DNA of 36,343 nucleotides from Candidatus Wolfebacteria bacterium (GCA_016933365.1 JAFGBB010000032.1:1-36343); one strand, 5' to 3'. Shown: positions 4,657 through 36,343, counted from the first letter of the stretch. The notes: a model not told the origin generated them from the sequence alone. Program-made: numbers and translations.

Positions 4657-7600
4657 ATGACGAAATCTAAAAATAATAGAGTAAACGAATTGGTCGAAAT
4701 CAACTTCGACCAATTTAGGATAAAGAACCCAAATTTCAGAGAGTCTTTTGAACAACTTTGTTATTATTTATTTTGTAGAAGGTTCAAGATAACAAAAGGA
4801 ATACTCCGTCATAAAAATCAGATTGGCATAGAAACAGAACCAGTTAAGGTTGATAAGCAATATATTGGATTCGAGTGTAAATTTTTTGAGAATAAGATTG
4901 ATACGAATGAATTAGTTAAAAAAATCAAAAAAGCAAAAGAGAAAAACCCCAAAATTACTAAGATTATCTTCTATCTAAATCAAGATTTTTTATCAGAAAG
5001 CCAAAAGAAGGGGCAGAAAAAATCAACTAAAATGTTAGAGATCGAAAAGGTAGCGAGCGAACAGAAAGTTGAGATTGAATGGGTTGTAAAAAGTCATTTC
5101 GAAATTTTACTTAACCAACCGTCAAACCTAGATTTGGCGGAGTTGTTTTTTGATGTCGGCGATGAGTTGGGTTTTATTAAAAACTATGCAAATCCAGATA
5201 TTCTTACTTTCCTTCAGTCAAAAGAATATATTAATTTGCCACTTCTTCATCAGGGGAAATCCTTAAGGTTTCCATCAGCCAGCATCTTAAAAAGTTTAAA
5301 GACAACTTTTTTAATTACGGGATGCCCGGGCTCTGGAAAGACTATCTTGATGCACAAATTGTTTCAAGAATTTGGCGGGCTAAACAAAAATAAAAATGAA
5401 CAGATGATTCGGGTTCTTCAAAAAAATTCAGCCGTGCCAATGTTGGTGAATTTAAAGAATTGTATCAGTGATAGTTTAGAAAATATTTTAAGAAATAGAC
5501 AAAACGATAGCAGGGTAAGAGGGCGAACACTAGGCTTTGTTTATATTTTTGACGGTTTAGACGAATTAAGCGAAGAGAAGGCCGATAATATGCTTGCATA
5601 TATGCGAGAACTTGAACAGCAGGATAATACAAAGAGGATTATTATTTCGTGCCGATCTGGCAACTTAAACAGGATTAAATTAAAAGTCTATCTGCCAAAT
5701 ATTATTGAATATGCAATAGCTGATCTCGAGATAAAACATATTAATCAGTATTTTGATGCAAAGGAAAATACATTAAAAAAGAAATTGCTATTAAGGCTCC
5801 AGAAAAATAACCAAGAACTTTTAAGTGAAATAAAAGATATACTTATGACGCGGTTGCTTTGGGATACCATAGTCAACTTGGATTCGCAAAGTGGCATTAT
5901 AGATTTACTGGAGAAGAAAATAGAGCTTTTATTGAATGATCCAAATCATAAGAAAAATATCGCAGAGTTGAACCTATTGAATCCTAAGGGTGAAAATTTA
6001 ATCACATTAAATCAAGATATTGCCTTTGAATTTCAGAAAAAATTCCAATTCAGATACTCGCAGAAGGAATTATACAACATTATTTTGGCTAAATTTCCAC
6101 GCCTTGATTATAGATCGGCGAATGAGCTTTTAAACTATCTTGCCGATCTATTTTTTGAATCTGAGTATACCCCAACCGAACGAAATCGCAGTTTCGTTTA
6201 TCAACATCGCAGATATCAAGAATTTTTCTTTGTTCAGAAATTAAAATCAAAGTATGAAAACAATCCAAAATCTCTGAGAGAATTAAATGTTTTATCGAAT
6301 CGAGATTTTCTTGAGAAATTATTTTTACGATATATGCGTAAACAATATGGGTTAGCGAGAAATTTAATTGGGATGATTGAAATGAATTTAATAGATGTAT
6401 ATTTAGGAAAACATAGCGGATACGGAGTGGATGACGCTTATTATTTAAACTCCGCTGCATTTATACCCTCGCTTGCAAGCCAAGAGAACCAATTATTCAT
6501 CCAGTTATTTGAGGATAATAATCTGGCGCTATCAGAAAAGATTAAAGTTGATTTAAAAGTAGTCAGAGATTATTTTGCGAAGTGGAAAAAAGATAAAGAT
6601 AATTTTAGAACTACCAATTATTTAAAAAGCATTTGGGAAAATGGTATAGCCTCTTTACTAACTAATGCCGCAGTCTTTTGGAGGGCCGGGAAGAAAAATT
6701 TGGCCATCCACCTTCTTAATGATATGAGCTCTTTGCAAAAGTTATATTCCAATAATAAGTTTCGCAAAGGTCTTCGCAAAGAGGATCATTTAAGAGATCC
6801 TTTTTGGGAAAGATGGGAAGATTATTTATATATTCTTATAGTTATCGATAACAAGACTCCAAAGAAAATTTTGGATAATCTTGTTAGGAAAAATTACAAA
6901 ATATTTTCAAGTGATCGCCCCTTCTCGTCTCAAGAAGAAGGTAAAGAAAAGTTGTTAAAATCGTTCTTCAGAGTTTGTCTGCGTGATAAAGCGAACGCTT
7001 TATTTAGGCTTATCGATACTTTTGACGAATTTGAATTCTCATCTTTTTTAGATGTTTTACTATCTATTGAATTCTTGCCGGCATTCATCAAGAATAAATC
7101 AATACACAAAAAAATTGCTTCCTTTTTACAGGATTTACATTCAGATTTAAATGAGAAAAACTATTTTATGACTTTTTATAAAAATTATTTTGGCATCAAA
7201 TTATCTAAAAAAGAAAGAAAATATTTAGAAACCGAACTTTCAAAATTAAGAAATGAAAGGAAGGTCGATTGGCATTTTCATCAAGCACCATTCAAATTTG
7301 CTATCATTTCTTATGTTTTAGCCAAAAACACTTTTGATGAATTGTTAAAGGATGCATCTGAGAACTCACCGTTTCGATATTATGACGAGTTAGCTTTATA
7401 TTCGGCTTTGTTCGCAGATTTTATAAGCTTGCTTTCTGAGAAAAAGAATATTGAGACAATAACAAGGGACTATCTTGCTTATGTAAATATTCATGATCAA
7501 CGATTGGGATTATATTTAAAAGTAGATATTTCTTTTTTGTGGGCCTATATTTTAACATATAGCAAAACAACTAATGATCGATTAAGAAATATCAAAAATC

Positions 7601-26703: not shown

Positions 26704-28134
26704 ATGAAAACTATTTGTAAAAGAAATGAAAATTATTCGCAATGGTATCAGGACGTTATTGCGAGCGCTGATTTAGCCGAGCATTCAGTTGTGCGAGGAT
26801 GTATGATAATTAAGCCGTATGGTTATGCTATTTGGGAGAGAATAGTTTCTGTTTTAGATTCAATGCTTAAGAATAAAAAAATCAAAAATGCTTATTTTCC
26901 AATTTTTATTCCTCAAAGTTTTTTAGAGAAAGAAAAACAGCATATAGAGGGGTTTTCTCCTGAATTAGCCGTAGTAACGCATGGTGGAGGTAAAAAACTT
27001 GAAGAACCCTTAATTATTCGTCCAACGTCTGAAACAATAATTTATGAATCTTTTTCTAAATGGATTCAATCTTATCGTGATCTGCCTTTTGTGATAAATC
27101 AGTGGGCGAATGTAGTTAGATGGGAAATGCGTCCGAGATTATTTTTAAGAACAACAGAGTTTTTGTGGCAGGAGGGTCATACCGCGCATACTTCTCTTAA
27201 TGAAGCTGAAGATTACTCGTTAATGATACTTAATGAAGTATACGCGAAGTTCGCCGAGGAATATTTAGCTATGCCCGTGTACAAAGGTCAGAAGTCGGAT
27301 GGTGAAAAATTTGCCGGAGCTTTAAAAACTTTTTGTATTGAAGCTTTAATGCAGGATGGAAAATCCTTACAAGCCGGAACTTCTCATAATTTATCTGATA
27401 ATTTTTCTAAATCTTTTAATGTTACTTTTTTAGATAAAGATGAAAAAAGAAAAAATGTTTTTCAGACAAGTTGGGGCGTGAGTACAAGATTGATAGGTGG
27501 ATTAATTATGATTCATAGCGATGATAAAGGATTGGTTTTGCCGCCTAAAATTGCTCCTATACAAGTCGTGATTATTCCAATTATCAAAACCGGAGAAAAA
27601 AAAATTATTTCAAAAGCTCAATCTATTGCTAAGCAACTAACGGAATTTTCAGTGGAAGTTGATTTACGAGAAGATTTGCGACCGGGACAAAAATTTTATG
27701 AGTGGGAAAAAAAGGGTGTACCCGTAAGAATTGAGATTGGCCCCAAAGATTTGGAAAAGGGCGTTGTTATTCTTGTACGTCGTGATACGGGTAAAAAAGA
27801 AGAATGTTTAATAAACCAGCTTCCAAAACGCGTTGATAAACTTTTACGGGATATTCAGTTAAATATCTTTACAATAGCATTAAAGCATAGAGAGGAAAGT
27901 AATAAAATCGCTGATTCTTGGAAAGAATTTGAGGAACTTCTTAAACAGGGAGGATATGTATTTTCTTATTTTTGCGGAGAAAAAAAATGTGAAGCTGAAA
28001 TTAAAAATAAAACAAAAGCAGTAAGTAGATTTTTACCATTAGATATAGAAGAGGAAGAAGGTGATCATTATTGTATTCATTGCGGTAAAAAAACTTTTTA
28101 TAATAAACGTTGGGCATTTGCGCTATCATATTAG
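26704..28134 (+). CDS. proS: Prolyl-tRNA synthetase, archaeal/eukaryote-like type
   Basis: 476 aa. Class II motifs (IRPTSET, FLWQEGHTAH, LQAGTSHNL), an anticodon-binding domain, and the C-terminal Zn-binding domain ending in the conserved terminal Tyr (ALSY). Confidence 0.9.
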   Translation: MKTICKRNENYSQWYQDVIASADLAEHSVVRGCMIIKPYGYAIWERIVSVLDSMLKNKKIKNAYFPIFIPQSFLEKEKQHIEGFSPELAVVTHGGGKKLEEPLIIRPTSETIIYESFSKWIQSYRDLPFVINQWANVVRWEMRPRLFLRTTEFLWQEGHTAHTSLNEAEDYSLMILNEVYAKFAEEYLAMPVYKGQKSDGEKFAGALKTFCIEALMQDGKSLQAGTSHNLSDNFSKSFNVTFLDKDEKRKNVFQTSWGVSTRLIGGLIMIHSDDKGLVLPPKIAPIQVVIIPIIKTGEKKIISKAQSIAKQLTEFSVEVDLREDLRPGQKFYEWEKKGVPVRIEIGPKDLEKGVVILVRRDTGKKEECLINQLPKRVDKLLRDIQLNIFTIALKHREESNKIADSWKEFEELLKQGGYVFSYFCGEKKCEAEIKNKTKAVSRFLPLDIEEEEGDHYCIHCGKKTFYNKRWAFALSY

Positions 28135-28149
28135 ATAAGGAGGTGAAAA

Positions 28150-28272
28150 ATGTTTGAATCAGTAAGACTTGAGCTAACTGGGAGATGTGATATGAGATGT
28201 CTTTATTGTCATGCAGGTGAAAAAAATACTAGTTGTTATAATAAAGACGAACTTTCTCAAATTAATAAATAA
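28150..28272 (+). pseudogene. Truncated radical-SAM gene fragment (40 codons)
   Basis: MFESVRLELTGRCDMRCLYCHAGEK carries an intact CxxxCxxC start of a radical-SAM domain, but a stop follows after 40 codons. SD-like aaggaggtg upstream. Confidence 0.4.
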
Positions 28273-28279
28273 TAAAAAT

Positions 28280-29206
28280 ATGAAAAAAATATTTATTGTT
28301 CTAATAATCTTAGTTGTTTTAATCGCAATTTTGCTTGCTTGGTTTTTTATAATTAATAATTCTGAAAATAACGAAAAGCCAATTGTTTGCGCGATGGATG
28401 TAAAAATTTGTTCAGATGGGTCTTATGTGAGTCGGTTTGGTCCTGATTGCGAATTTGCGCCTTGCCCTAAAGAAGACTTAATTCAGATAGAAAATTTACA
28501 AGTTAATCAAGTTATTAATAGTCCGCTTTTTATTGAAGGTAAAGCCAGGGGTTATTGGTTTTTTGAAGCAAATTTTCCAATTAAACTTTTTGACGCGGAA
28601 GGAAAACTTTTAGGGATTGCCATTGCTCAAGCGCAAAATGAAAATGGGGTAGGTTGGATGACTGAAGACTTTGTACCTTTTAAGGCGAATTTGGAATTTG
28701 AGCTTCCAAAGACTGAAATGGGAATTCTTGTTTTTGAAAAAGATAATCCTTCCGGTCTTTTGGAAAACGCTGATGAATTAAGAATGCCAGTTTCTTTTCT
28801 TACGGAAAGTAGAAAAGTAAATCTTTATTATTATAATCCTGAATTAGATAAAGATTCTTTTGATAATATCCAGTGTAGTCAAAATGGTTTAGTGGCGGTT
28901 TCAAGGCAAATTCCTATAAGTCAAACTCCAATTCAAGATACAATTAAGCTTTTACTTTTAGGCAATCTTACTCAGGAAGAAAAATCACAGGGAATTGAAA
29001 CAGAATATCCTTTAGACGGATTTTCTCTTAAAAGCGCTTCTTTAAATAATGAAGTTTTAACACTTGAATTTAACGATTCTTTAAATAAAACAATAGGCGG
29101 TTCTTGTCGCACCGGTATTCTTTGGTTCCAAATTGAAGCAACGGCCAAACAATTTCCTGAGGTTCAAGAAGTTCGTTTTTTACCTGAAGACATTTTTCAA
29201 CCCTAA
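28280..29206 (+). CDS. Membrane-anchored Gmad2 (Ig-like) plus GerMN domain protein
   Basis: I prefer the start MKKIFIVLIILVVLIAILLAWFFI (ATG 28280) over the track start at 28211. INSPLFIEGKARGYWFFEANFPIKLFD is Gmad2-like, and the C-terminal half is GerMN-like (IQDTIKLLLLG...). Confidence 0.5.
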   Translation: MKKIFIVLIILVVLIAILLAWFFIINNSENNEKPIVCAMDVKICSDGSYVSRFGPDCEFAPCPKEDLIQIENLQVNQVINSPLFIEGKARGYWFFEANFPIKLFDAEGKLLGIAIAQAQNENGVGWMTEDFVPFKANLEFELPKTEMGILVFEKDNPSGLLENADELRMPVSFLTESRKVNLYYYNPELDKDSFDNIQCSQNGLVAVSRQIPISQTPIQDTIKLLLLGNLTQEEKSQGIETEYPLDGFSLKSASLNNEVLTLEFNDSLNKTIGGSCRTGILWFQIEATAKQFPEVQEVRFLPEDIFQP

Positions 29207-29242
29207 AATTGAAATTATAACTTTTAAAAATCGAATATTTTT

Positions 29243-29271
29243 AATATATTGACGTCGGACGTCAATATATT
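29243..29271. repeat. Perfect 14-bp-arm palindrome
   Basis: AATATATTGACGTC-g-GACGTCAATATATT, 37 nt after the stop at 29206. The core contains two AatII-type GACGTC sites. Confidence 0.7.
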
Positions 29272-29307
29272 GGTTTAGATAATTGTTTTGAGTGTAAGGT
29301 TGTTTTT

Positions 29308-29336
29308 TTGACAAAATAAATTTGTTATGTTATATT
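29308..29336 (+). promoter_or_regulatory. Sigma70-type promoter
   Basis: TTGACA (29308-29313), 17 nt, TATATT (29331-29336), upstream of a strong SD (aaaggaggag) and the ATG at 29378. Confidence 0.5.
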
Positions 29337-29377
29337 TATTTTAGTAAATTACTAATTTTATAAAGGAGGAGAAAATA

Positions 29378-29569
29378 ATGTATTTTTTTAAAAAACTTCA
29401 AACAGCAGATATTCTTGAAATAAGGTCAGAGGATGGTTCCTTGGTTGGGGTAATTTTACCAACTAATAAAGGAATTAAAATTGTCAGCAAGGAGATTGCT
29501 GACAGTGTAGATAAAAACATTAAAATTGATCGGTCGCCTCCAGCGCCGACAATTATAATCAATTTTTAA
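29378..29569 (+). CDS. Small hypothetical protein (63 aa)
   Basis: Strong SD, its own promoter and its own terminator. No recognisable motif. Confidence 0.5.
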   Translation: MYFFKKLQTADILEIRSEDGSLVGVILPTNKGIKIVSKEIADSVDKNIKIDRSPPAPTIIINF

Positions 29570-29590
29570 AATCCTTTTTAAAAATTGATT

Positions 29591-29620
29591 AAGAGCTAAC
29601 AAAAGTTGGCTCTTTTTTTT
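29591..29620 (+). terminator. Intrinsic terminator
   Basis: aagagctaac-aaaa-gttggctctt stem (10 bp including one G-U) followed by T8. Confidence 0.7.
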
Positions 29621-29665
29621 ATGTATTTTTTAATAACTTAATTTGATATTTTTAAAGTTTATTAA

Positions 29666-29694
29666 TTGAAATACTTTAAATAAAAAGTTAAAAT
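29666..29694 (+). promoter_or_regulatory. Candidate promoter of the radC2 operon
   Basis: TTGAAA (29666-29671), 17 nt, TAAAAT (29689-29694). It lies only about 8 nt before the ATG at 29703, which would give a near-leaderless mRNA. Confidence 0.35.
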
Positions 29695-29702
29695 AATAAA
29701 AT

Positions 29703-30365
29703 ATGAAAATAAAAGATTTTCCAAAAGTGGATAGACCTAGAGAAAAATTGGAAAAATACGGGCCGGAAAAATTATCTAATTCGGAACTTTTGGCAATTTT
29801 ATTAAGAACCGGAGGTAAGGGTGTTAATGTTGTTGAATTAGCTAAAAAGATTTTAGCTAAATTTAGCGGAGTTGGTTTGGCTAAAGCAAGTTTTAAGGAT
29901 TTAAAAAATACTTTTGGCTTGGGCGCGGCCAAGACTTGCGAAATTGTTGCTTGTTTTGAACTTGGTCGCCGGTTTTTAAAAAACAAGAAATCAATTTTAT
30001 TGCTTTCTCCACAAGATGTTTGGAATGAATTAAAAGATATTCGGGATAATAAAAAAGAACATTTTGTTATTTTCTTTTTAGACGCGCGTAATCAAGAAAT
30101 TAGGCGGGAAATTATTTCGGTTGGTTCGCTTAATGCCAATCTTGTTCATCCGCGCGAAGTTTTTGAGCCGGCAGTTGCCAGTTTGGCGGCGCAAATCATA
30201 ATAGCTCATAATCATCCATCTGGTAATCCAGAGGCGTCTGAAGAGGATTTAAAAATAACAAAAAGGTTGGTTGAAGCCGGTAAAATTCTTGGAATAGATG
30301 TTATCGACCACGTGGTAGTGTCTGAAGGGGAATATTTCAGTTTTAAAGAGAAAAAGTTAATATAA
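29703..30365 (+). CDS. radC: RadC-family JAB/MPN (JAMM) domain protein, copy 2
   Basis: 220 aa, collinear with copy 1. JAMM motif HNHPSGNPEASEED starts at nt 30207, the same codon position as in copy 1. The stop lies 4 nt before the next ATG. Confidence 0.85.
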   Translation: MKIKDFPKVDRPREKLEKYGPEKLSNSELLAILLRTGGKGVNVVELAKKILAKFSGVGLAKASFKDLKNTFGLGAAKTCEIVACFELGRRFLKNKKSILLLSPQDVWNELKDIRDNKKEHFVIFFLDARNQEIRREIISVGSLNANLVHPREVFEPAVASLAAQIIIAHNHPSGNPEASEEDLKITKRLVEAGKILGIDVIDHVVVSEGEYFSFKEKKLI

Positions 30366-30369
30366 AATT

Positions 30370-31080
30370 ATGGATATTTCACAGGATATTTTGAATAAAT
30401 TTTTTACGAGAGAAGATTATTTAGAGTGGATAAGGCAAGAGATGGCGATTTTTGCGTATTTAGACCTGACTAATATGTTCCACTGGCAAGATATTTTGGG
30501 TTGGAAATTTAGAGTAGAAGATGTTATTAAACAACTTTTTACTTTTCCAAATATTAAAGAAGTTAAGGTGTATTATGGATTAAATCCGCGGGACAGAAAA
30601 AATTCCGAAGCTTTTTTAAATCGTATAAAGAAAGCAGGGGCGAGTTTAAGGCCAAATCTGCCAAAGGAAATGAAATTTATTAGAAAAGATATTAATGAAG
30701 CCTTCTTTTTTCAGAGGAGAACGATGGATTTATTTGATGGTGGAACTAAAGAAAAAATTCATAAATTTATAGAAGAATTGGAAAAGTCGGGGATTATTAT
30801 TGAAGAGCCAAAATGTAATTTTGATGTTGAAATGACGATGGATATGCTGGATGACACGGAAAAATTGACCGCGGTGATGCTTTTTTCCGGGGATTCCGAT
30901 ATGCGCGCTCCATTAGAGCGTTTAAGGGTTAAGGGCAAGAAAATTGGTGTTGTTGGCGTAAGGGGAATAGTAGCGGGAGAATTACACACATTAGAAGATA
31001 AATATATTGATTTTGGCAAGTTTTATACGGGAAAAAGGACTTATAAAAGCGAAAATCCCGCCAGAGGCGGGACCGCGTGA
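30370..31080 (+). CDS. NYN/LabA-like (PIN-fold) ribonuclease-domain protein 1
   Basis: 236 aa. AIFAYLDLTNMF (first Asp), CNFDVEMTMDMLD, and MLFSGDSDMRAPLERLRVKGKKIGVVG (SGDSD at 30886-30900) follow the LabA/NYN acidic-residue pattern. Confidence 0.7.
   Translation: MDISQDILNKFFTREDYLEWIRQEMAIFAYLDLTNMFHWQDILGWKFRVEDVIKQLFTFPNIKEVKVYYGLNPRDRKNSEAFLNRIKKAGASLRPNLPKEMKFIRKDINEAFFFQRRTMDLFDGGTKEKIHKFIEELEKSGIIIEEPKCNFDVEMTMDMLDDTEKLTAVMLFSGDSDMRAPLERLRVKGKKIGVVGVRGIVAGELHTLEDKYIDFGKFYTGKRTYKSENPARGGTA
31057..31071 (+). other. GC-rich hairpin inside the last codons of NYN gene 1
   Basis: cccgcc-aga-ggcggg: a 6-bp all-G/C stem in an otherwise AT-rich context, 7 nt before the TGA stop. Confidence 0.6.
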
Positions 31081-31148
31081 TTAGTAGAATTACTCCTACA
31101 AAATCAATATAACAAACAAACGGCTCAATCGTCAATCCCAATCTGGGG

Positions 31149-31190
31149 ATAACTCGATTTCATTGAATTTGGGCCTCAAGAGGCGAAAAT
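31149..31190 (+). repeat. Junction repeat, copy A (left flank of the TA cassette)
   Basis: ataactcgatttcattgaatttgggcctcaagaggcgaaaat. By my hand alignment it matches 31803-31845 at 34 of 43 positions. Confidence 0.6.
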
Positions 31191-31196
31191 AGACTC

Positions 31197-31231
31197 TTGA
31201 CAGTTTATTTGTTTGTACGTTATTATGTACA
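31197..31231 (+). promoter_or_regulatory. TA-module promoter with a possible autoregulatory palindrome
   Basis: TTGACA (31197-31202), then 18 nt, then TATTAT (31221-31226). TGTAC-N8-GTACA (31214-31231) straddles the -10. Confidence 0.5.
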
Positions 31232-31256
31232 TATGAATATAAACACAAAAACAACA

Positions 31257-31601
31257 ATGTCTATTTCCGAGGCGAGGAAAAGAATTTTTGAAATCGCCAA
31301 AGAGGTTCAAAAACCGGGTAATTTTTATACCTTGACTGAAAAAGGCCGTCAAAAAGCCGTGATTATGTCTGCCGAGGAATTTGAATCTTGGGCGGAAACT
31401 TTGGAAGTGATGAAGGAATTTCCTAATTTAAAAAAAGAAATAAAAGAAACCAATAAAGCTATTAAAAGCGGGGAATACAAAAAATGGACAACTCTTGAGG
31501 AAATTTTAGCGAAAGAAGGATTTGTCTTTGCCGATAAGTCCTCAAAAAAATATGGAGTATCAGCTAAGGTTAAAACCAAGAGCCGAAAAAGAGTTAAATA
31601 G
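31257..31601 (+). CDS. Phd/YefM-family type II antitoxin
   Basis: MSISEARKRIFEIAKEV...AVIMSAEEFESWAETLEVM is the classic Phd/YefM N-terminal domain. The start is ATG 31257 or 31233. The track start at 31197 is the promoter -35 and is rejected. The 3' end overlaps the toxin gene by 50 nt. Confidence 0.75.
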   Translation: MSISEARKRIFEIAKEVQKPGNFYTLTEKGRQKAVIMSAEEFESWAETLEVMKEFPNLKKEIKETNKAIKSGEYKKWTTLEEILAKEGFVFADKSSKKYGVSAKVKTKSRKRVK

Positions 31602-31806
31602 TCTTTCGCGAAAAGATTATTATAAAATTCTAACGGTTTTAACGGGATTGGCAAAAAACCCCTTTTCCGGGAAAAAACTGGAAGGGGAATATAGGGGTTA
31701 TTATTCAACTCGCGCCTGGCCGTACAGAATCATTTATCAGGCGTTTAAAAAGGAACTTATCGTTCTTATTATTTATATTGGCCACAGACAAGGAGTTTAT
31801 AAATAA
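31552..31806 (+). CDS. RelE/ParE-family type II toxin
   Basis: MEYQLRLKPRAEKELNSL...LAKNPFSGKKLEGEYRGYYSTRAWPYRIIYQ...IGHRQGVY matches the RelE/ParE consensus. I prefer ATG 31552 over the track start at 31522. Confidence 0.8.
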   Translation: MEYQLRLKPRAEKELNSLSRKDYYKILTVLTGLAKNPFSGKKLEGEYRGYYSTRAWPYRIIYQAFKKELIVLIIYIGHRQGVYK

Positions 31807-31845
31807 CTCAGTTTTATTGAATTTAGGTCCAAAAAGGCGTAAAAT
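31803..31845 (+). repeat. Junction repeat, copy B (right flank of the TA cassette)
   Basis: ataactcagttttattgaatttaggtccaaaaaggcgtaaaat. It begins inside the relE stop codon and sits 20 nt upstream of the methylase ATG. Confidence 0.6.
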
Positions 31846-31865
31846 TATAGTAAATTTATGATTTT

Positions 31866-33938
31866 ATGAAAAATATCTCAAATATTATCAAAGATTCAAA
31901 TTACGGTTTTTCGATTTTTGATCAGAAGTTAGTTGAAGAATTAGAAGATAAAATTACTATTAAAGACGGCAAGCCATATATTGTTTGTATTATTCGTAAT
32001 AAAGAAATTATTTTAAAGCCCGAAGAAGTTGTTCGTCAACTTTATGCGATGAAATTAATTAAAGAATATGGCTATTCAAAACAGAGGATTAAGTTTGAAC
32101 ACGCAATTCATTTTGGTCGCGAGGTAAAATCTGCCGATATTGTTATTTTTGATAAAGATCGGCCGATGGTTGAGTATATTATAATTGAAATTAAGAAACC
32201 AAAACTTCAAGACGGAAAAAATCAGCTTCGTTCTTATACTAATGCTACCGGCGCGCCGATTGCTGTTTGGACTAATGGCGGACAGATTTCGCATTATAAT
32301 CGCAAAGATCCAAACTATTTTGAGGATATTACTGATATTCCTAAATCTGATCAAACACTCGAAGATATTTTAAAAGAAAGGTTTACCCTTAAAGATTTAA
32401 TTATTAAAGATAAAATACCAAACGAAGGAAAATCACTTAAAACTATTATTCAGGAAATGGAAGATGAGGTTTTGGCAAACGCTGGAGTGGATGTTTTTGA
32501 AGAAGTTTTTAAACTTATTTTTACAAAATTATATGATGAACGTAAAAGCGCTAAAGATAAGGAAATTATTAATTATTTTTTGAATCAAAAAGATTTCCCG
32601 ATGGTTATTGCGGATAAACCGTACGTTAAATATGGCGAAAGCAAAGAAAAATCATATGATGAATTAAAAGAGATTATCAGTGAGATTGACGATAGTAAAT
32701 TCAGAGTGCTTGAATTTAGAAATACCGGACAATCTGAAAGCGAGCTAAAAAAGAAAATCCAAAAACTTTTTGACGAAGCCAAAGTCAAATGGCCGGGCGT
32801 TTTTGACGAAACTAGCCAAATTCAGCTTTCGCCCTCCCATCTTTCAATTAGTGTTTCTAGCTTGCAAGACATTAAACTATTCAATTCCAATCTACAAATT
32901 ATTGATGAAGCATTTGAGTATTTGGTCAATAAATCATCAAAAGGAGAAAAAGGCCAATATTTCACGCCTCGTCACGTGATTGATATGTGCGTTAAAATGC
33001 TTAATCCTAAAGCGGGTGAATATATGGTAGATACCGCCGCCGGCTCTTGCGGATTTACAGTGCACACAATTTTTCAAATCACAGGACACTTATTTCAAAA
33101 TACTGATATTTCCGAAGAAGAAAAAGAAAATGTGCTTAAAGTTTTTGGTATAGATTTTGACGAAAAAGTCGTGCGCGTAGCTCGCACTTTAAACTTAATC
33201 GCCGGAGACGGAAATACCAATGTTTTACACTTGAACAACTTGGATTATGAACGTTGGAATGAATCAATCCAAAATCGCGATTGGTTAGAAGTGTATGGAG
33301 CAGGTTTAAAAAGACTTGAAGCTTTGCAAAAAGATAAAAGTTCTTACAAAGAATTTAATTTTGATATTCTTATGGCGAATCCGCCGTTTGCTGGAGATAT
33401 TAAGGAATCTCGCATAATTCATAAATATGATCTTGGTTACAACGACAAAAATAAACCAAAGTCAAAAGTCGGCCGCGATATTTTATTTATTGAAAGAAAC
33501 TTAAACTTTTTGAAGCCAGGCGGAAGAATGGCGATTGTGTTGCCGCAAGGCCGTTTTAACAATACATCGGACAAAAATATTCGCGAGTATATTTCTGAAA
33601 AAGCCAGAATTTTGGCAGTAGTCGGGCTGAATGTAAACACTTTCAAACCACACACGGGAACCAAAACCAGCGTGCTTTTTGTACAAAAATGGGACGATAA
33701 ACTTTGTCCGAAAGTTGAAGATTATCCGATTTTCTTTACTGTGTCCGAGAAACCCGGCAAGGATAATTCCGGCGAGTATGTTTTCTTGAAAAACGGCGGC
33801 GGTCAGTCGAAATTGGATAAAAATGGACACTTTATAATTAATCACGACTTACACAATCAAGACGGCGAATTGCCCGACGGCGTGGCGGAAAAGTTTATTG
33901 AATGGGCAAAAAAAGAGAAATTAAGTTTTTGGAAATAA
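31866..33938 (+). CDS. hsdM: N6-adenine DNA methyltransferase, HsdM-like (gamma class), with N-terminal HSDR_N-type domain
   Basis: 690 aa. N-terminal PEEVVRQLY...SADIVIFD...IIIEIKKP is HSDR_N-like. GQYFTPRHV, motif I VDTAAGSCGF (33027-33056) and motif IV MANPPFAG (NPPF 33378-33389). Confidence 0.8.
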   Translation: MKNISNIIKDSNYGFSIFDQKLVEELEDKITIKDGKPYIVCIIRNKEIILKPEEVVRQLYAMKLIKEYGYSKQRIKFEHAIHFGREVKSADIVIFDKDRPMVEYIIIEIKKPKLQDGKNQLRSYTNATGAPIAVWTNGGQISHYNRKDPNYFEDITDIPKSDQTLEDILKERFTLKDLIIKDKIPNEGKSLKTIIQEMEDEVLANAGVDVFEEVFKLIFTKLYDERKSAKDKEIINYFLNQKDFPMVIADKPYVKYGESKEKSYDELKEIISEIDDSKFRVLEFRNTGQSESELKKKIQKLFDEAKVKWPGVFDETSQIQLSPSHLSISVSSLQDIKLFNSNLQIIDEAFEYLVNKSSKGEKGQYFTPRHVIDMCVKMLNPKAGEYMVDTAAGSCGFTVHTIFQITGHLFQNTDISEEEKENVLKVFGIDFDEKVVRVARTLNLIAGDGNTNVLHLNNLDYERWNESIQNRDWLEVYGAGLKRLEALQKDKSSYKEFNFDILMANPPFAGDIKESRIIHKYDLGYNDKNKPKSKVGRDILFIERNLNFLKPGGRMAIVLPQGRFNNTSDKNIREYISEKARILAVVGLNVNTFKPHTGTKTSVLFVQKWDDKLCPKVEDYPIFFTVSEKPGKDNSGEYVFLKNGGGQSKLDKNGHFIINHDLHNQDGELPDGVAEKFIEWAKKEKLSFWK
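33861..33938 (+). repeat. 78-bp direct repeat, copy 1 (the 3' end of the methylase gene)
   Basis: gacggCgaattgcccgacggcgtggcggaaaag...tttttggaaataa, identical to 34656-34733 except for one base (position 6). Confidence 0.9.
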
Positions 33939-33939
33939 T

Positions 33940-34545
33940 ATGTTAAACAAAAACACAACTTTCATTTTTATAGATGCTTCAAATTTATGGGAAGCTCAGA
34001 AGGCTAAAGGTAAACTCTTTGATTTTGAAAAACTAAAAAAATTTCTTAAAGAAAAGTTTGATGCCACAGCTATAGAGTTTTTCTATTATTCCGCTTATCC
34101 AGCCGAAGGAACCAGGGATTACAGCACAGACGACAAGCATAAATTCTTCACTTTTCTTAAAAAGGGACTCGGATTTATTGTGCGTAAAAAAGAATTAAAA
34201 AGAATTAATGTTATTACAGAAGTCGGTCAATCAGTTGAAGAAAAGGGTAATATGGATGTGGAGATTACCATTGACTCTCTGCATCATATAAAAAAATATG
34301 ACACGGCCGTTTTTTTCTCGGGCGATTCTGATTTTTTGGCGTTAGTCGCTTATTTGCGTCGAAGAGGAAAGAAAGTTTTTATCTTTTCTTCTGAAAACAA
34401 TATTTCCAGAGAATTGCGAACCGGCGCCAACGGTTATTTTGACATATTAAAAATTGAGAATAATGTCTGGGGGAAAGACTTAAAACACCGAACAGATAAG
34501 TCCACCCGAAAACAAAGCAGCCCTCCGCAAGGAGGACTGCCCTAG
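33940..34545 (+). CDS. NYN/LabA-like (PIN-fold) ribonuclease-domain protein 2
   Basis: 201 aa. FIFIDASNLW, KGNMDVEITIDSL, and AVFFSGDSDFLALVAYLRRRGKKVFIFS (SGDSD at 34318-34332). The ATG lies 1 nt after the methylase stop. Confidence 0.75.
   Translation: MLNKNTTFIFIDASNLWEAQKAKGKLFDFEKLKKFLKEKFDATAIEFFYYSAYPAEGTRDYSTDDKHKFFTFLKKGLGFIVRKKELKRINVITEVGQSVEEKGNMDVEITIDSLHHIKKYDTAVFFSGDSDFLALVAYLRRRGKKVFIFSSENNISRELRTGANGYFDILKIENNVWGKDLKHRTDKSTRKQSSPPQGGLP
34517..34540 (+). other. GC-rich hairpin with GNRA loop inside the last codons of NYN gene 2
   Basis: gcag-cc-ctcc-GCAA-ggag-ga-ctgc, ending 2 nt before the TAG stop. Confidence 0.55.
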
Positions 34546-34556
34546 GATGTAATACC

Positions 34557-34580
34557 CTTTCAGTTATGGATAACCGAAAG
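34557..34580 (+). other. Hairpin in the NYN2 3' flank
   Basis: ctttcagttat-gg-ataaccgaaag: 11-bp arms with one mismatch. Confidence 0.5.
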
Positions 34581-34610
34581 ACATTATTAATGTAGCAAAA
34601 TCATAAACCT

Positions 34611-34733
34611 ATGTCAATAACGATATTAACAATTCTTGATAAATTAAATAACCATGACGGAGAATTGCCCGACGGCGTGGCGGAAAAGTTTATTGAATGG
34701 GCAAAAAAAGAGAAATTAAGTTTTTGGAAATAA
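34611..34733 (+). pseudogene. Remnant of a second HsdM-like C-terminus (open as a 40-codon ORF)
   Basis: MSITILTILDKLNNHDGELPDGVAEKFIEWAKKEKLSFWK. The last 26 residues are identical to the methylase C-terminus, and ILDKLNNHD resembles KLDKNGHFIINHDLHNQD of the full-length gene. Confidence 0.6.
34656..34733 (+). repeat. 78-bp direct repeat, copy 2
   Basis: 77/78 identical to 33861-33938. It is followed 4 nt later by the ATG at 34738. Confidence 0.9.
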
Positions 34734-34737
34734 AGTT

Positions 34738-36222
34738 ATGACCACAGACGATAAAGTATATTTTTCAGACATATTCGGCGTTAAACATACAGTGATTGAA
34801 AAGTATGGTGCTTTGGATATTTCTCTCGTTTGTGATAATCCCGCTTTTGTTGACCCATTTCTTATTTTTGCAAACTCAAAGTATAAAAATTTACATGACT
34901 TTATTATTGATTATCTTAAATTTTTAAAAGATTTATCGTTCAAAGAAGAAAAATTAAGTTCCGGAAACTTTAAACACTATTATAAATTCCCCGAAGTAAA
35001 ACAAGCGTGGTTAGGGTATTCAGTTGGTGGTAATGTGGGTTTAGGATTAGGAAAAGATTTTGCTGAATCACTTTACAAAAATTTACATAAAATATTTTCG
35101 CAGTTTGGTAACGAGAAAATTACTGAGTCTTCTCATCTTGAAAAATTATGCTTAGTTGAAGAAGGTGTAGGAGTAGACAAGATAAGCGATTTCACAATAA
35201 ATTTAGTTAAAAGATACTTACTAGATTACACACAAACATTTGCAAAAAAATATATTAACCAAAAATATCTAGCAAAATTTTCCATACGAAAAGTAAATTT
35301 TGATTTTAAAAAAGGTATTTGGACCGATGAACAATTTATATTGCCAAAGCTCGAAAGAAAAAACAAAAAGGAGTTTGTGCTATTGATACCGCAAGAGATA
35401 TTAACAAAAGAAGATACATGGATTTCAAAAAATGACTTCTTGAACAATGACACGGCTATTTTTAATACAATCGCAAATGATGAATTAAGAACAAAAATCA
35501 ATAAATTCTTTTTTGACAATTTAGCCGTAAAGCTAAATAAGAAAAAACAGTCGGAAAAAGATTATTCCAAAAAAAGCAAAAAAAATGCCTTAGTCAAAAC
35601 AGTCTGGGAATTTCCAGAGGTTCTGGATTATTACATAAAATATAAAGAGCTAAACAAAGATAATGCTCTAAAATATCACATTGCTGAACCGGAGTTTATA
35701 AATTTCTTTTCTGATGCTAGTGCTTTAAAAAATGAACTTAAAAAAGAGAAGTTTGATAAATTAACTTCTTTTGATGACTGCATTTCCAGAATTTTATTTT
35801 TTAAACAAAAACTTGAATCAAATAGTAATGATTTATATTTCAAAGACAAATCACTACAAGAAAAACATCTACGCTTGATGTTTAAAAATGTAACTTACGG
35901 AGCCTTATTTGACTATAATTCAGAAGTTAATAACGGGAGGGGACCAATTGATTTTCTTGTGTCTTATGGAAGCCAAGATAAAATTGGCTTAGAGTTAAAA
36001 CTAGCCTCTAACCCTAAACTAAAACACAATCTATTAAACCAAGGGGAAATTTGTCAAGAAGATAGTAATTTAAAGCATGTAATCAAAATAATATTCTATT
36101 TCTCAGATCAAGAATTGAGTAGGATAAATGATATTTTGAGAGAAATAAACAAATCGATTGACAATAAAGAAATTTTTGCCATTGATTGCCGAAAAAAAGT
36201 ATCCGCTTCTAATCAAAAATAA
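34738..36222 (+). CDS. Uncharacterised 494-aa protein with a C-terminal PD-(D/E)xK-like nuclease motif
   Basis: C-terminal GRGPIDFLVSYGSQDKIGLELKLAS (D405 at 35950, E419-x-K421 at 35992-36000) fits the PD...ExK pattern. The N-terminal ~380 aa contain no motif I can name. Confidence 0.5.
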   Translation: MTTDDKVYFSDIFGVKHTVIEKYGALDISLVCDNPAFVDPFLIFANSKYKNLHDFIIDYLKFLKDLSFKEEKLSSGNFKHYYKFPEVKQAWLGYSVGGNVGLGLGKDFAESLYKNLHKIFSQFGNEKITESSHLEKLCLVEEGVGVDKISDFTINLVKRYLLDYTQTFAKKYINQKYLAKFSIRKVNFDFKKGIWTDEQFILPKLERKNKKEFVLLIPQEILTKEDTWISKNDFLNNDTAIFNTIANDELRTKINKFFFDNLAVKLNKKKQSEKDYSKKSKKNALVKTVWEFPEVLDYYIKYKELNKDNALKYHIAEPEFINFFSDASALKNELKKEKFDKLTSFDDCISRILFFKQKLESNSNDLYFKDKSLQEKHLRLMFKNVTYGALFDYNSEVNNGRGPIDFLVSYGSQDKIGLELKLASNPKLKHNLLNQGEICQEDSNLKHVIKIIFYFSDQELSRINDILREINKSIDNKEIFAIDCRKKVSASNQK

Positions 36223-36224
36223 TT

Positions 36225-36343
36225 ATGCAATATTCAGTTGTAAAATTTAATGAGGTAAAAGATGTATTCAGATTTGACGCTGAATATTTTCACCCTACCG
36301 CTTTAAAATATGAAAACATCATCAGCTTACATAATGGAAAAAC
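36225..36343 (+). CDS. hsdS: Type I R-M specificity subunit (HsdS)-like, 5' partial
   Basis: MQYSVVKFNEVKDVFRFDAEYFHPTALKYENII. The FRFDAEYF(H/Q)P opening is typical of HsdS target-recognition domains. It starts 2 nt after the previous stop and runs off the window. Confidence 0.55.
   Translation, partial: MQYSVVKFNEVKDVFRFDAEYFHPTALKYENIISLHNGK

What the first reader, a model, noticed from the sequence alone, without database searches (positions are those of the whole stretch)
31866..36343. Type I-like R-M locus with an NYN RNase and a PD-(D/E)xK protein wedged between hsdM and hsdS (PrrC/Rlo-like position)
Seen: the gene order is HsdM-like methylase (NPPF, VDTAAGSCGF), NYN gene, 494-aa PD-(D/E)xK-motif protein, then an HsdS-like start (FRFDAEYFHP). 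Apart from the NYN2 3' flank the spacing is minimal (1 nt, 4 nt, 2 nt). hsdR, if present, lies beyond the window. Established: type I R-M loci are known insertion points for backup defence genes. The anticodon nuclease PrrC sits between hsdM/hsdS/hsdR genes of EcoprrI and is held inactive by the R-M complex, and Rlo genes occupy similar positions. Inference: the NYN RNase, the 494-aa nuclease-like protein, or both may be R-M-guarded abortive-infection effectors, released when a phage anti-restriction protein disables the type I enzyme. I do not know of a described NYN-based version of this arrangement.
Basis: partly seen in the sequence, partly recalled or inferred. Interest (0 to 1): 0.7.

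Follow-up and report, generated by a model that had tools for sequence, protein, structure and literature searches.

The report
Restriction locus carrying two hitch-hiker genes
A two-gene restriction-modification system has two unrelated passengers wedged between its genes: a nuclease-like protein that often sits inside such systems, and a small, apparently undescribed mobile cassette made of an RNase gene and a tightly linked antisense small RNA.

Summary
The gene order is real: HsdM-like methylase, NYN, a 494-aa protein with an invariant PD..ExK motif, then the start of HsdS.

The interpretation needs revision in four ways.

1. The R-M system is most likely a two-gene RM+S unit. HsdM carries an N-terminal HSDR_N_2 nuclease domain, its best PDB relative is RM.BsaXI, and 80 relatives show no conserved hsdR.
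2. In relatives, the hsdM|hsdS junction is a cargo hotspot holding Fic, RhuM, Bro-N, OLD-like and Schlafen-like genes, among others.
3. The 494-aa protein (DUF8370/DUF8371, related to PADLOC PDC-M36A) lies inside R-M operons of three architectures in 6 of 9 contexts. This supports an embedded defence candidate but not a guard mechanism.
4. NYN2 is not an R-M part. It belongs to a 716-nt cassette inserted at the hsdM stop codon, flanked by a 79-nt duplication of the hsdM 3' end.
   - A relative keeps the empty site.
   - The cassette carries a convergent ~75-nt sRNA with a sigma70-type promoter, a terminator, covarying helices and no Rfam match.
   - The sRNA occurs in 80 of 80 NYN loci and in none of 856 kb of NYN-free DNA.
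   - About 90% of cassettes lie outside R-M loci.

I infer a toxin-antitoxin-like module; this is untested.

The parts
31866..33938 (+). RM/HsdM subunit, 690 aa. It has an N-terminal HSDR_N_2 PD-(D/E)xK-like domain (residues 52-159, D..EIK) and a gamma-class N6-adenine methyltransferase domain (VDTAAGSCGF, NPPF).
   Evidence: Pfam and PADLOC matches. The best PDB hit is RM.BsaXI, 8w0p, E 6e-17. Eighty relatives of 60-91% identity were found.
33860..33938 (+). Direct repeat, copy 1. This is the last 79 nt of hsdM, including the stop codon, and it abuts the NYN2 start codon.
   Evidence: the repeat finder family D1, alignment and blastn at 98.7% over 78 nt.
33940..34545 (+). NYN2, a LabA-like NYN (PIN-like) RNase gene. 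Its last ~12 codons (..SSPPQGGLP) read into the sRNA terminator hairpin.
   Evidence: Pfam NYN, 84 bits. D12, N15, N104, D106, D129 and D131 are invariant. More than 2,000 homologues of 60-82% identity, mostly from Patescibacteria. In relatives the ORF usually stops just before the hairpin.
34510..34588 (-). Small RNA gene of about 75 nt, convergent with NYN2 and overlapping its 3' end. Layout: 5' hairpin, a conserved single-stranded linker GGGUAUUACAUCC(A/U)AGG, then a terminator hairpin and a U-run.
   Evidence: Covariance model hit, 90.3 bits, E 4e-22. In 73 sequences, 12 of 22 pairs show compensatory changes and 97.4% of cells are paired; 0 of 500 shuffles match this. Pairing drops to 82.7% if read on the + strand. 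MFE -33.6 kcal/mol, z -5.6. No Rfam match at E<=1.
34589..34617 (-). Sigma70-type promoter of the sRNA: TTGACA, 17 nt, TG-n-TACATT.
   Evidence: Promoter scan, 10 of 12 with an extended -10. TTG of the -35 and TA..T of the -10 are invariant in the 78-sequence alignment.
34655..34733 (+). Direct repeat, copy 2. This is a non-coding copy of the hsdM 3' end, lying directly upstream of the 494-aa gene. It is the ancestral hsdM/494-aa junction.
   Evidence: Window 34631-36262 is colinear with the uninterrupted hsdM-494aa-hsdS locus L168 at 78.5% nt identity.
34738..36222 (+). DUF8370/DUF8371 protein, 494 aa, with a C-terminal PD-(D/E)xK motif (PID405...E419LK421). It is a candidate accessory nuclease that is recurrently embedded in R-M operons.
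   Evidence: Precomputed PF28123/PF28130 annotations. PADLOC PDC-M36A, 1e-15, N-terminal half only. AF2 model, pLDDT 83.8. Weak fold hits to PspGI, EcoO109I, EndoMS and Can2. Genomic contexts.
36225..36343 (+). 5' end of hsdS (specificity subunit), cut off by the window end.
   Evidence: 95.8% nt identity to the start of the 478-aa ORF in L116. That ORF matches PADLOC Specificity_I at 6e-45. An HsdS cluster of ~473 aa is present in 67 of 80 relatives.
30370..31080 (+). NYN1, a second and divergent NYN gene (26% identical to NYN2), directly after radC. It lies outside the finding's coordinates but has the same module type.
   Evidence: Pfam NYN, 52 bits. The family has 671 hits of 73-84% identity.
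31048..31135 (-). NYN1-associated convergent sRNA candidate (~31048-31100) with its promoter (31135 to 31106) and terminator (31074 to 31054). A DnaA-box-like TGGGGATAA sits at 31144-31152.
   Evidence: Promoter and terminator scan. Fold z-score -4.15. The same RNA with a sigma70-type promoter is conserved in L181, L191 and L201; TGTGGATAA lies upstream of the -35 in L181 and L191, and L201 has only a TTATTAACA variant.

Best explanation
The locus is a two-gene restriction-modification unit. One gene encodes an RM polypeptide with an N-terminal PD-(D/E)xK domain and an N6-adenine methylase domain. The other encodes a separate specificity subunit. This is the BcgI/BsaXI-like layout, so no hsdR is needed. 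In this R-M family the hsdM|hsdS junction is a cargo hotspot, and in this genome it holds two independent passengers.

**Passenger A: the 494-aa DUF8370/DUF8371 protein.** This is the older resident. The same hsdM-494aa-hsdS arrangement occurs in an actinomycetotal MAG. The protein is probably a stand-alone accessory defence nuclease that is co-transcribed with R-M genes.

**Passenger B: a 716-nt NYN-sRNA cassette.** It inserted exactly at the hsdM stop codon and duplicated 79 nt of the hsdM 3' end.
- It consists of a promoterless NYN RNase gene, read through from the host operon.
- It also carries a convergent, strongly promoted ~75-nt sRNA whose terminator abuts or overlaps the NYN 3' end, usually with a DnaA-box-like site upstream of the sRNA promoter.
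- I infer that it works as a toxin-antitoxin-like pair. The sRNA would hold the RNase in check, either by antisense pairing with the NYN mRNA 3' end (the geometry of the Bacillus txpA/RatA class) or by direct binding.
- I further infer that the cassette spreads as a selfish or defence module by recombination into operon ends. The R-M hotspot is a favoured landing site, not a functional requirement.

**Shown:** anatomy, insertion, sRNA structure, co-occurrence and context statistics.
**Inferred:** RNase toxicity, the antitoxin role, the mechanism of mobility and any defence function.
For: **R-M layout**
- HsdM contains HSDR_N_2 plus N6_Mtase, and its best PDB hit is RM.BsaXI.
- HsdS was verified by proxy.
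- No HsdR-type families appear among the families listed for 30 large ORFs in 80 related loci.

**Hotspot**
- Of the 67 related loci with HsdS, about half have hsdM directly followed by hsdS. The rest carry Fic, RhuM, Bro-N, PDC-S45, AriAB/OLD-like or Schlafen-like cargo.

**Insertion**
- A 79-nt repeat, 78 of 79 identical, flanks NYN2 plus the sRNA.
- The empty site is present in L168/L169.
- None of 80 close hsdM relatives has NYN.
- Decayed hsdM-3' repeats flank the cassette in L010 and L039.
- Long flanking repeats of 97-147 nt occur in L054, L066 and L067. Control positions never exceed 37 matches.
- Two contigs of one MAG share only a 746-nt block that equals the cassette.

**sRNA**
- Promoter and terminator are present, helices covary and pairing is strand-asymmetric.
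- The covariance model hits 80 of 80 NYN loci and nothing in 856 kb of NYN-free loci.
- The same architecture appears next to three other divergent NYN genes: NYN1, L029b and L168.
- The NYN catalytic residues are invariant.

**Autonomy**
- Upstream neighbours of 74 cassettes span 132 Pfam families, including DnaX and FBP aldolase. Only 7 are hsdM.

**494-aa protein**
- It lies inside R-M operons of three architectures in 6 of 9 contexts.
Against: - No expression, toxicity or phage data exist.
- The sRNA could be a substrate or regulator rather than an antitoxin.
- Type I toxins are small peptides and type III antitoxins are tandem repeats. Neither definition fits.
- The cassette has no recombinase and no terminal repeats, and only 4 of about 82 copies have long flanking repeats. 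The mobility mechanism is therefore unknown.
- About 10% of cassettes, and 2 of the 4 NYN1-type contexts sampled besides the window's own, sit next to DNA methylase genes. This is far above chance and could reflect a functional link rather than a hotspot.
- The Pfam survey lists only the top 25 families, so a rare HsdR could have been missed.
- The duplication comes from a metagenome assembly. A circular cassette sharing the 79 nt could be mis-threaded into the contig.
Confidence: 0.6

Rival explanations
1. NYN and/or the 494-aa protein are R-M-guarded abortive-infection effectors. Like PrrC with EcoprrI, they would be held inactive by the R-M complex and released when a phage anti-restriction protein disables it.
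For: - Both genes sit inside the R-M operon with 1-4 nt spacing.
- The 494-aa family is embedded in type I-like, canonical type I and type II operons, often with overlapping stop and start codons.
- NYN cassettes follow hsdM in 7-9 of 80 species, and NYN1-type genes precede methylases in L181 and L191.
- PrrC is almost exclusively embedded in type I systems.
Against: - NYN2 is a recent insertion with its own sRNA partner, and about 90% of its relatives are unlinked to R-M.
- The 494-aa family also occurs without R-M, in L170, L177, L004 and on plasmids.
- Its R-M partners belong to three unrelated architectures, which argues against a specific protein-protein guard interface.
- No ATPase or anticodon-nuclease domain is present.
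Confidence: 0.15
2. The NYN-sRNA pair is a regulatory or housekeeping RNA-processing unit, not a toxin-antitoxin. NYN would process or stabilise the sRNA, which would then act in trans through its invariant 16-nt linker, perhaps under DnaA control.
For: - The single-stranded linker GGGUAUUACAUCC.AGG is almost invariant while the helices covary.
- A DnaA-box motif is enriched next to the sRNA promoter: exact match in 16 of 78 loci against 4 of 780 background windows.
- The family is very widespread in Patescibacteria.
Against: - Cassette locations are highly variable, and identity is 60-80% across deep CPR lineages.
- One MAG carries two copies, and several copies have insertion-type flanking repeats. 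All of this fits an accessory or mobile element rather than a core function.
- No trans target was identified.
Confidence: 0.15
3. NYN plus the sRNA is an RNA-guided or structure-specific nuclease that drives the cassette's own mobility, by analogy with TnpB/omegaRNA or IS110 bridge RNA.
For: - The cassette is mobile yet encodes no other enzyme.
- An RNA is strictly linked to the nuclease gene.
- PIN-like folds include DNA flap nucleases (my own background knowledge).
Against: - The sRNA has no variable guide-like segment that matches the flanks, and its single-stranded part is invariant.
- There are no terminal inverted repeats and no conserved ends.
- Flanking repeats vary in length from 25 to 147 nt and are usually absent.
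- LabA-type NYN domains are RNases in the cases studied, for example MARF1 as cited.
Confidence: 0.06
4. The 79-nt duplication, and hence the 'insertion', is an assembly artefact or a chance repeat.
For: The window is apparently a metagenome contig. De Bruijn assemblers can thread a circular or repeated element through a shared repeat.
Against: - A 78-of-79 match is far beyond chance; control positions give at most 37 matches.
- The same topology, in decayed form, appears in independent assemblies L010 and L039.
- Long repeats flank the cassette in L054, L066 and L067.
- Even the artefact scenario requires a cassette that carries an hsdM 3' segment.
Confidence: 0.04

Closest known systems
PrrC / EcoprrI (also RloC): an anticodon nuclease embedded in a type I R-M locus
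   Same: An RNase-type gene sits between R-M genes in the same orientation. Embedding in type I loci is the family's hallmark.
   Different: - PrrC has an ABC-ATPase N-domain and an anticodon-nuclease C-domain, and it binds EcoprrI.
- NYN2 is a bare NYN domain with its own sRNA partner and is mostly found outside R-M loci.
- The host R-M here lacks HsdR.
Type I toxin-antitoxin systems of the convergent, 3'-overlapping class (B. subtilis txpA/RatA, bsrG/SR4)
   Same: The protein gene and the sRNA gene are convergent and overlap at their 3' ends. The sRNA has its own strong promoter and terminator. The unit is small, self-contained and often island-borne.
   Different: - Type I toxins are membrane peptides of fewer than 60 aa. 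Here the putative toxin is a 190-236 aa NYN RNase.
- The overlap is often only the terminator.
- Function is untested.
Type III toxin-antitoxin systems (ToxIN, CptIN, TenpIN)
   Same: An endoribonuclease is paired with a non-coding RNA, and these systems have a role in phage defence.
   Different: The ToxI-type antitoxin is a tandem-repeat array upstream on the same strand and is processed by the toxin. Here there is a single convergent sRNA, and the nuclease fold differs (NYN/PIN-like rather than ToxN/Kid-like).
HEC-09 (PADLOC; Payne et al. 2024, doi 10.1101/2024.01.29.577857)
   Same: It is a NYN-domain protein discovered because it is embedded in a DNA-modification defence system (Hma). NYN2 hits its model at 1.6e-7.
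   Different: - The match covers only ~77 aa.
- HEC-09 has an extra N-terminal HTH-like domain.
- No sRNA partner is described.
- It gave no protection against the phages tested.
PDC-M36 (PADLOC phage-defence candidate from BREX/DISARM/type I RM embedding)
   Same: The N-terminal half of the 494-aa protein matches PDC-M36A at 1e-15. It shares the same 'guilt-by-embedding' context.
   Different: Only residues 31-274 match. PDC-M36 is a multi-gene candidate, and its partner genes were not identified here. It is uncharacterised.
Type IIB R-M enzymes (BcgI, BsaXI)
   Same: An RM polypeptide with nuclease and methylase domains works with a separate HsdS-like subunit. RM.BsaXI is the best PDB match, with the methylase region at the same position.
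   Different: Similarity was detected only in the methylase domain. PADLOC and REBASE-type models label the protein a type I MTase. The cleavage mode is unknown.
DarTG2 and TgvAB embedded in type I R-M (PMC12255303; doi 10.1101/2024.04.04.588119)
   Same: Independent defence or TA modules sit between hsd genes, and the site has been proposed as a recombination hotspot.
   Different: The protein families differ, and those examples sit between hsdS and hsdR of canonical type I systems.

Membership tests
Type I restriction-modification system | HsdM: gamma-class N6-adenine methyltransferase | tested here: met
   Pfam N6_Mtase at 3e-34. PADLOC MTase_I, 945 bits. Motifs VDTAAGSCGF and NPPF are present.
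Type I restriction-modification system | HsdS: specificity subunit with two target-recognition domains | tested here: inconclusive
   Only 39 aa lie in the window. The proxy L116 ORF (95.8% nt identity over the shared 118 nt) matches PADLOC Specificity_I over its full length at 6e-45. Pfam Methylase_S does not hit it.
Type I restriction-modification system | HsdR: SF2 helicase/translocase plus nuclease subunit | tested here: not met
   There is none in the window. ResIII, HSDR_N and EcoR124_C are absent from the families listed for 30 ORFs of 550 aa or more in 80 related loci. DNA downstream of the window end could not be read.
Type IIB (BcgI/BsaXI-like) RM+S system | Nuclease and methylase in one polypeptide, plus a separate S subunit | tested here: met
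   HSDR_N_2 (residues 52-159, D..EIK) and N6_Mtase are in one 690-aa protein. The best PDB hit is RM.BsaXI. hsdS is adjacent.
Type IIB (BcgI/BsaXI-like) RM+S system | Cleavage on both sides of a bipartite site | not testable with these tools
   This requires biochemistry.
PrrC/RloC-type R-M-guarded anticodon nuclease | ABC-ATPase N-domain plus anticodon-nuclease C-domain | tested here: not met
   NYN2 matches only NYN. The 494-aa protein has no ATPase or PrrC match in Pfam, NCBIfam or PADLOC.
PrrC/RloC-type R-M-guarded anticodon nuclease | Near-exclusive embedding in type I R-M loci | tested here: not met
   For NYN2-type genes, 7 of 74 upstream neighbours are hsdM and the rest span 132 Pfam families. 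The 494-aa family is embedded in 6 of 9 contexts, across three R-M architectures.
PrrC/RloC-type R-M-guarded anticodon nuclease | Physical inhibition by the R-M complex and release by an anti-restriction factor | not testable with these tools
   This requires genetics or biochemistry.
NYN (PF01936, LabA-like) RNase | NYN domain with conserved acidic active-site residues | tested here: met
   Pfam NYN, 84 bits, above the 24.2-bit cut-off. D12, N15, N104, D106, D129 and D131 are invariant in 29 sequences, including NYN1.
Type I toxin-antitoxin | Antisense sRNA that overlaps the toxin transcript | tested here: met
   The sRNA (34510-34588, minus strand) overlaps the NYN2 3' end at 34545. It has a promoter and a terminator on the minus strand. 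Transcription itself was not observed.
Type I toxin-antitoxin | Small hydrophobic toxic peptide | tested here: not met
   The partner is a soluble NYN RNase of 190-236 aa.
Type III toxin-antitoxin (ToxIN-like) | Tandem-repeat RNA antitoxin upstream of the toxin on the same strand | tested here: not met
   Each locus has a single-copy, convergent, downstream sRNA: one hit per locus in 80 loci. The repeat analysis of 29000-36343 shows no tandem array.
PD-(D/E)xK nuclease superfamily (494-aa protein, C-terminal domain) | The D...(D/E)xK motif on the characteristic alpha/beta core | tested here: inconclusive
   The motif PID405..E419LK421 is invariant. Strands 406-409, 415-422 and 447-454 are in the model. 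Foldseek hits to PspGI, EcoO109I, EndoMS and Can2 reach only E 0.06-0.3. Profile search against PDB sequences finds nothing.
PADLOC PDC-M36 | Match to PDC-M36A and presence of its partner gene(s) | tested here: inconclusive
   The A-model matches residues 31-274 at 1e-15. The partner genes are not known to me. The term does not appear in the searchable literature.

The most novel reading that the evidence does not exclude
The NYN-sRNA cassette would be a new class of RNA-antitoxin toxin-antitoxin or abortive-infection module.
- A NYN (PIN-like) RNase would be held in check by a convergent, 3'-overlapping sRNA.
- The sRNA promoter would be wired to DnaA through an adjacent DnaA box.
- The ~0.72-kb unit would be mobile without any recombinase of its own. 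It would spread through Patescibacteria by inserting at operon ends with long target duplications.
- The hsdM|hsdS hotspot would be a favoured site.

Two NYN subfamilies only 26% identical share this tripartite design.
Probability: 0.35. Interest if true: 0.8.

Novelty: new variant of a known kind. Interest (0 to 1): 0.62.

Why it matters
**For the finding as stated.** It adds a clean comparative example of an R-M operon acting as a cargo slot. It also flags DUF8370/DUF8371 as a strong 'guilt-by-embedding' candidate that crosses three R-M architectures.

**For the unexpected part.**
- The NYN-sRNA module is strictly coupled and has covariation support.
- It has no Rfam family and no literature match.
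- It is present in at least 172 species-level genomes, mostly annotated as Patescibacteria. These organisms have tiny genomes and poorly known RNA biology and defence.

If the module is a TA or Abi system, it would extend RNA-antitoxin systems to a PIN-like enzymatic toxin. It would also give an experimentally tractable 0.7-kb unit.

If its spread really is recombinase-free, it would be a useful model for how cassettes move between operon ends.

Tried and rejected
- **Extending the contig.** An exact look-up of the 494-aa protein found nothing, so hsdR and hsdS had to be judged from relatives.
- **Rfam.** There was no match for the sRNA in the window at E<=1, or in four loci at gathering score.
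- **PDB sequence and profile searches for the 494-aa protein.** Nothing was found. Foldseek against the PDB and BFVD gave only weak hits.
- **Viral contigs.** No NYN2 relatives were found, so there is no evidence the cassette is phage-borne.
- **Short flanking repeats as insertion scars.** Repeats of 25-47 nt occur at similar rates at control positions. Only the repeats of 78 nt or more are counted.
- **An hsdM-3'-like leader as an integral part of every cassette.** Only L010, L039 and L069 show it.
- **The 108-nt extent of the repeat.** The 5' ~29 nt of copy 2 is only ~59% identical. It partly matches the cassette's own right end as seen in L052. I therefore report 79 nt.
- **NYN pseudogenisation with a retained sRNA as TA evidence.** Only L031 has an internal stop, which is too few cases.
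- **Literature searches.** Searches for NYN with Patescibacteria, NYN with RNA antitoxin, and PDC-M36 found nothing relevant.

Full report
**1. Observation**

All ORFs in 28000-36343 lie on the + strand.
- HsdM is at 31866-33938 and has 690 aa.
- NYN2 is at 33940-34545 and has 201 aa.
- A 192-nt gap follows NYN2.
- The 494-aa ORF is at 34738-36222.
- An ORF starting at 36225 runs off the window: MQYSVVKFNEVKDVFRFDAEYFHP....

Domain searches support the assignments.
- HsdM matches Pfam N6_Mtase and also an N-terminal HSDR_N_2 domain. It scores 945 bits on PADLOC MTase_I PDLC03034.
- NYN2 matches Pfam NYN at 84 bits.
- The 494-aa protein has no hit in the local Pfam copy. Its homologues carry precomputed PF28123/PF28130, named DUF8370 and DUF8371. 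Its N-terminal half matches PADLOC PDC-M36A at 1e-15.

**2. The R-M system**

I fetched 80 metagenomic loci that encode HsdM relatives of 60-91% identity.
- Sixty-seven contain a ~473-aa protein cluster downstream of hsdM.
- Its member in L116 is 95.8% identical at the nucleotide level to the window's truncated ORF. It matches PADLOC Specificity_I over its full length at 6e-45.
- The downstream ORF is therefore HsdS.

No HsdR is conserved. Among 30 ORFs of 550 aa or more in these loci, the recurrent families are GmrSD, OLD-like AAA_15-TOPRIM and HerA. ResIII and HSDR_N are not among them.

HsdM itself carries a PD-(D/E)xK-type HSDR_N_2 domain (D..EIK). Its best solved relative is RM.BsaXI, a type IIB RM subunit that works with a separate S subunit.

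The system is best read as an RM+S unit. An hsdR beyond the window is unlikely, though I could not read past the window end.

**3. The hsdM|hsdS junction is a cargo hotspot**

In about half of the 67 loci hsdS follows hsdM directly. In the rest, one or two variable genes intervene:
- RhuM/Fic (8 loci)
- Bro-N (5)
- Fic_N-Fic (3)
- trypsin-like PDC-S45 (3)
- AAA_15/AriAB-like (2)
- Schlafen/AlbA_2 (2 in the slot)
- several genes of unknown function

This matches the published 'guilt-by-embedding' picture for Hma, BREX, DISARM and type I systems (Payne et al.). It also matches examples such as DarTG2 and TgvAB inside type I loci.

**4. The 494-aa protein**

The family has more than 2,000 members. 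I sampled nine distinct contexts:
- The window itself.
- L168/169: HSDR_N_2-type hsdM, then the 494-aa gene, then hsdS, in a Humimicrobiaceae (Actinomycetota) MAG.
- L172/173, L178 and L179/180: between hsdS and hsdR of canonical type I systems, with overlapping stop and start codons in L179/180.
- L002: between a BsaWI-like endonuclease and an N4/N6 methylase.
- L177, L170 and L004: three non-R-M contexts rich in defence genes.

Distant plasmid homologues sit near transposases, AAA ATPases or a methylase-helicase-GIY-YIG cluster.

The AlphaFold2 model is confident, with pLDDT 83.8, but it has no significant structural neighbour. The best PDB hits are PD-(D/E)xK nucleases (PspGI, EcoO109I, EndoMS, Can2) at E of 0.06 or worse. 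PID405...E419-x-K421 is invariant.

Reading: this is an accessory nuclease candidate that travels into R-M operons of several kinds. The variety of partners argues against a specific guard interface.

**5. NYN2 is an insertion**

The last 79 nt of hsdM (33860-33938) recur at 34655-34733, with one mismatch, directly upstream of the 494-aa gene. Window 34631-36262 is colinear with the uninterrupted hsdM-494aa-hsdS junction of L168. None of the 80 close hsdM relatives has NYN.

The 716 nt at 33939-34654 are therefore an insertion at the hsdM stop codon, with a target duplication.

**6. The cassette carries a small RNA gene**

I fetched 80 NYN2 relatives from species-representative genomes. They are 58-75% identical and most come from MAGs annotated as Patescibacteria/CPR lineages. 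Every one has a conserved block 3' of the ORF. Read on the minus strand, the block contains, in order:
- a TTGACA-17-TATACT promoter
- a 10-bp hairpin
- an almost invariant linker, GGGUAUUACAUCCAAGG
- a 12-bp terminator hairpin
- a U-run

Evidence that this is a structured RNA linked to NYN:
- RNAalifold and pair counting on 73 sequences show that 12 of 22 pairs have compensatory changes. In all, 97.4% of cells are paired; 0 of 500 shuffles match this, and slid controls reach 65% at most.
- 241 G-U cells make the structure strand-specific: 97.4% paired on the minus strand against 82.7% on the plus strand.
- A covariance model finds exactly one copy in each of the 80 NYN loci (67-100 bits). It finds the window copy at 34510-34588 (90 bits). 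It finds nothing in 856 kb of NYN-free loci.
- Rfam has no match.

In the window the NYN2 ORF reads into the terminator hairpin. This explains its odd ..SSPPQGGLP tail.

A DnaA-box motif (TTATCCACA) is enriched next to the -35. The exact motif occurs in 16 of 78 loci against 4 of 780 background windows. With one mismatch allowed, the counts are 31 of 78 against 33 of 780.

**7. The design is general**

NYN1 (30370-31080) is 26% identical to NYN2. It has its own convergent promoter (31135 to 31106) and terminator (31074 to 31054). Its sRNA and a sigma70-type promoter are conserved in three other contexts. TGTGGATAA lies upstream of the -35 in L181 and L191, while L201 has only a TTATTAACA variant. 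Two further divergent NYN genes have convergent consensus promoters, and L168 also has a terminator. The NYN catalytic residues are invariant throughout.

**8. Mobility and context**

- Upstream neighbours of 74 cassettes span 132 Pfam families, including DnaX and FBP aldolase. The only recurrent neighbour is the HSDR_N_2-type hsdM, in 7 loci.
- In those loci the order is hsdM-NYN-sRNA-small ORF(s)-hsdS, and the HsdM lineages are only 40-53% identical.
- L010 and L039 keep short remnants of the hsdM 3' end downstream of the sRNA promoter. These are decayed versions of the window's repeat.
- L069 carries a window-type hsdM 3' remnant upstream of NYN with no hsdM present.
- L054, L066 and L067 have flanking repeats of 147, 103 and 97 nt. 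Control positions never exceed 37 matches.
- Two contigs of one MAG share only a 746-nt block at 91% identity, and that block equals the cassette.
- Sixty-five of 79 upstream neighbours are co-oriented, with a median gap of 40 nt. NYN is therefore probably transcribed by read-through.
- I saw no recombinase, no terminal inverted repeats and no phage copies.

One mechanism would reproduce the window's topology: excision by recombination between the flanking repeats, followed by Campbell-type re-integration through the retained copy. This is inference only.

**9. Function**

The geometry is that of 3'-overlapping type I TA loci: a convergent sRNA with a strong promoter and a terminator at the end of the protein gene. 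The protein, however, is an RNase, as in type III systems. Neither definition is met (see the membership tests).

I rate a TA-like or regulated-toxin function at roughly 0.4. The structural claims (autonomous cassette, insertion, sRNA) I rate above 0.85.

HEC-09 shows that a NYN protein embedded in a modification system has already been described. It gave no protection against the phages tested.

**10. Verdict**

- The embedding observation is correct and belongs to a known kind of architecture.
- The DUF8370/DUF8371 protein is a good but uncharacterised embedded candidate.
- The new element is the NYN-sRNA(-DnaA box) cassette.

Interest is 0.62. Novelty: a new variant of a known kind.

Noticed in passing
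window 30370-31152: A second NYN gene (NYN1, 236 aa) follows radC by 4 nt. It has its own convergent sRNA candidate, promoter, terminator and a DnaA-box-like TGGGGATAA. The same RNA is conserved in L181, L191 and L201, where NYN1-type genes lie between radC and an N6_N4 methylase, or between an SNase island and PBP2.
   Followed up: partly
window 31149-31189 and 31803-31843: A 41-nt imperfect direct repeat (78% identical) flanks the Phd/YefM-ParE toxin-antitoxin pair (31197-31806). This suggests the pair is also an inserted cassette. Repeats of this length occur at background rates, so the repeat alone is not significant.
   Followed up: partly
NYN loci L008-L087, just beyond the sRNA -35 (for example L019, L021, L022, L054, L066): The DnaA-box consensus TTATCCACA/TGTGGATAA, in either orientation, is enriched 10- to 40-fold next to the sRNA promoter. 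The window's NYN2 copy has only a degenerate version (ATATTAACA, 34623-34631).
   Followed up: partly
sRNA terminator hairpin, alignment A4 columns 61-74: The top of the terminator stem (CCUCC/GGAGG) is nearly invariant while the lower stem covaries. The tetraloop appears in two mirror forms: GCGA/GCAA, and UCGC/UUGC, which is the reverse complement. A GNRA loop therefore forms on one strand in some loci and on the other strand in others.
   Followed up: no
window 36224-36341 compared with L116 and L095: The hsdS 5' end is 91-96% identical at the nucleotide level to loci whose hsdM is only 75-80% identical and whose cargo differs. This is consistent with recombination at the junction, or with hsdS exchange.
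   Followed up: no
L168 10617-11208: In the Humimicrobiaceae MAG that keeps the empty hsdM-494aa-hsdS site, a different 164-aa NYN gene lies downstream of a Shedu-like SduA_C gene. It has its own convergent promoter (11 of 12) and a terminator 6 nt after the stop codon.
   Followed up: partly
L031 4001-4591: This NYN copy has an in-frame TAG in the FIDASNL(W) motif, while its sRNA is intact (94 bits). It is the only disrupted NYN among the 80 loci.
   Followed up: partly
window 4683-4768 (minus strand): A weak hit of the sRNA covariance model (17.9 bits, E 0.005) falls inside a 1423-aa ORF. It is probably just a hairpin with chance similarity.
   Followed up: no
window 29556-29591: A perfect 16-nt inverted repeat with a 4-nt spacer (TAATCAATTTTTAAAA / TTTTAAAAATTGATTA) lies upstream of radC.
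   Followed up: no
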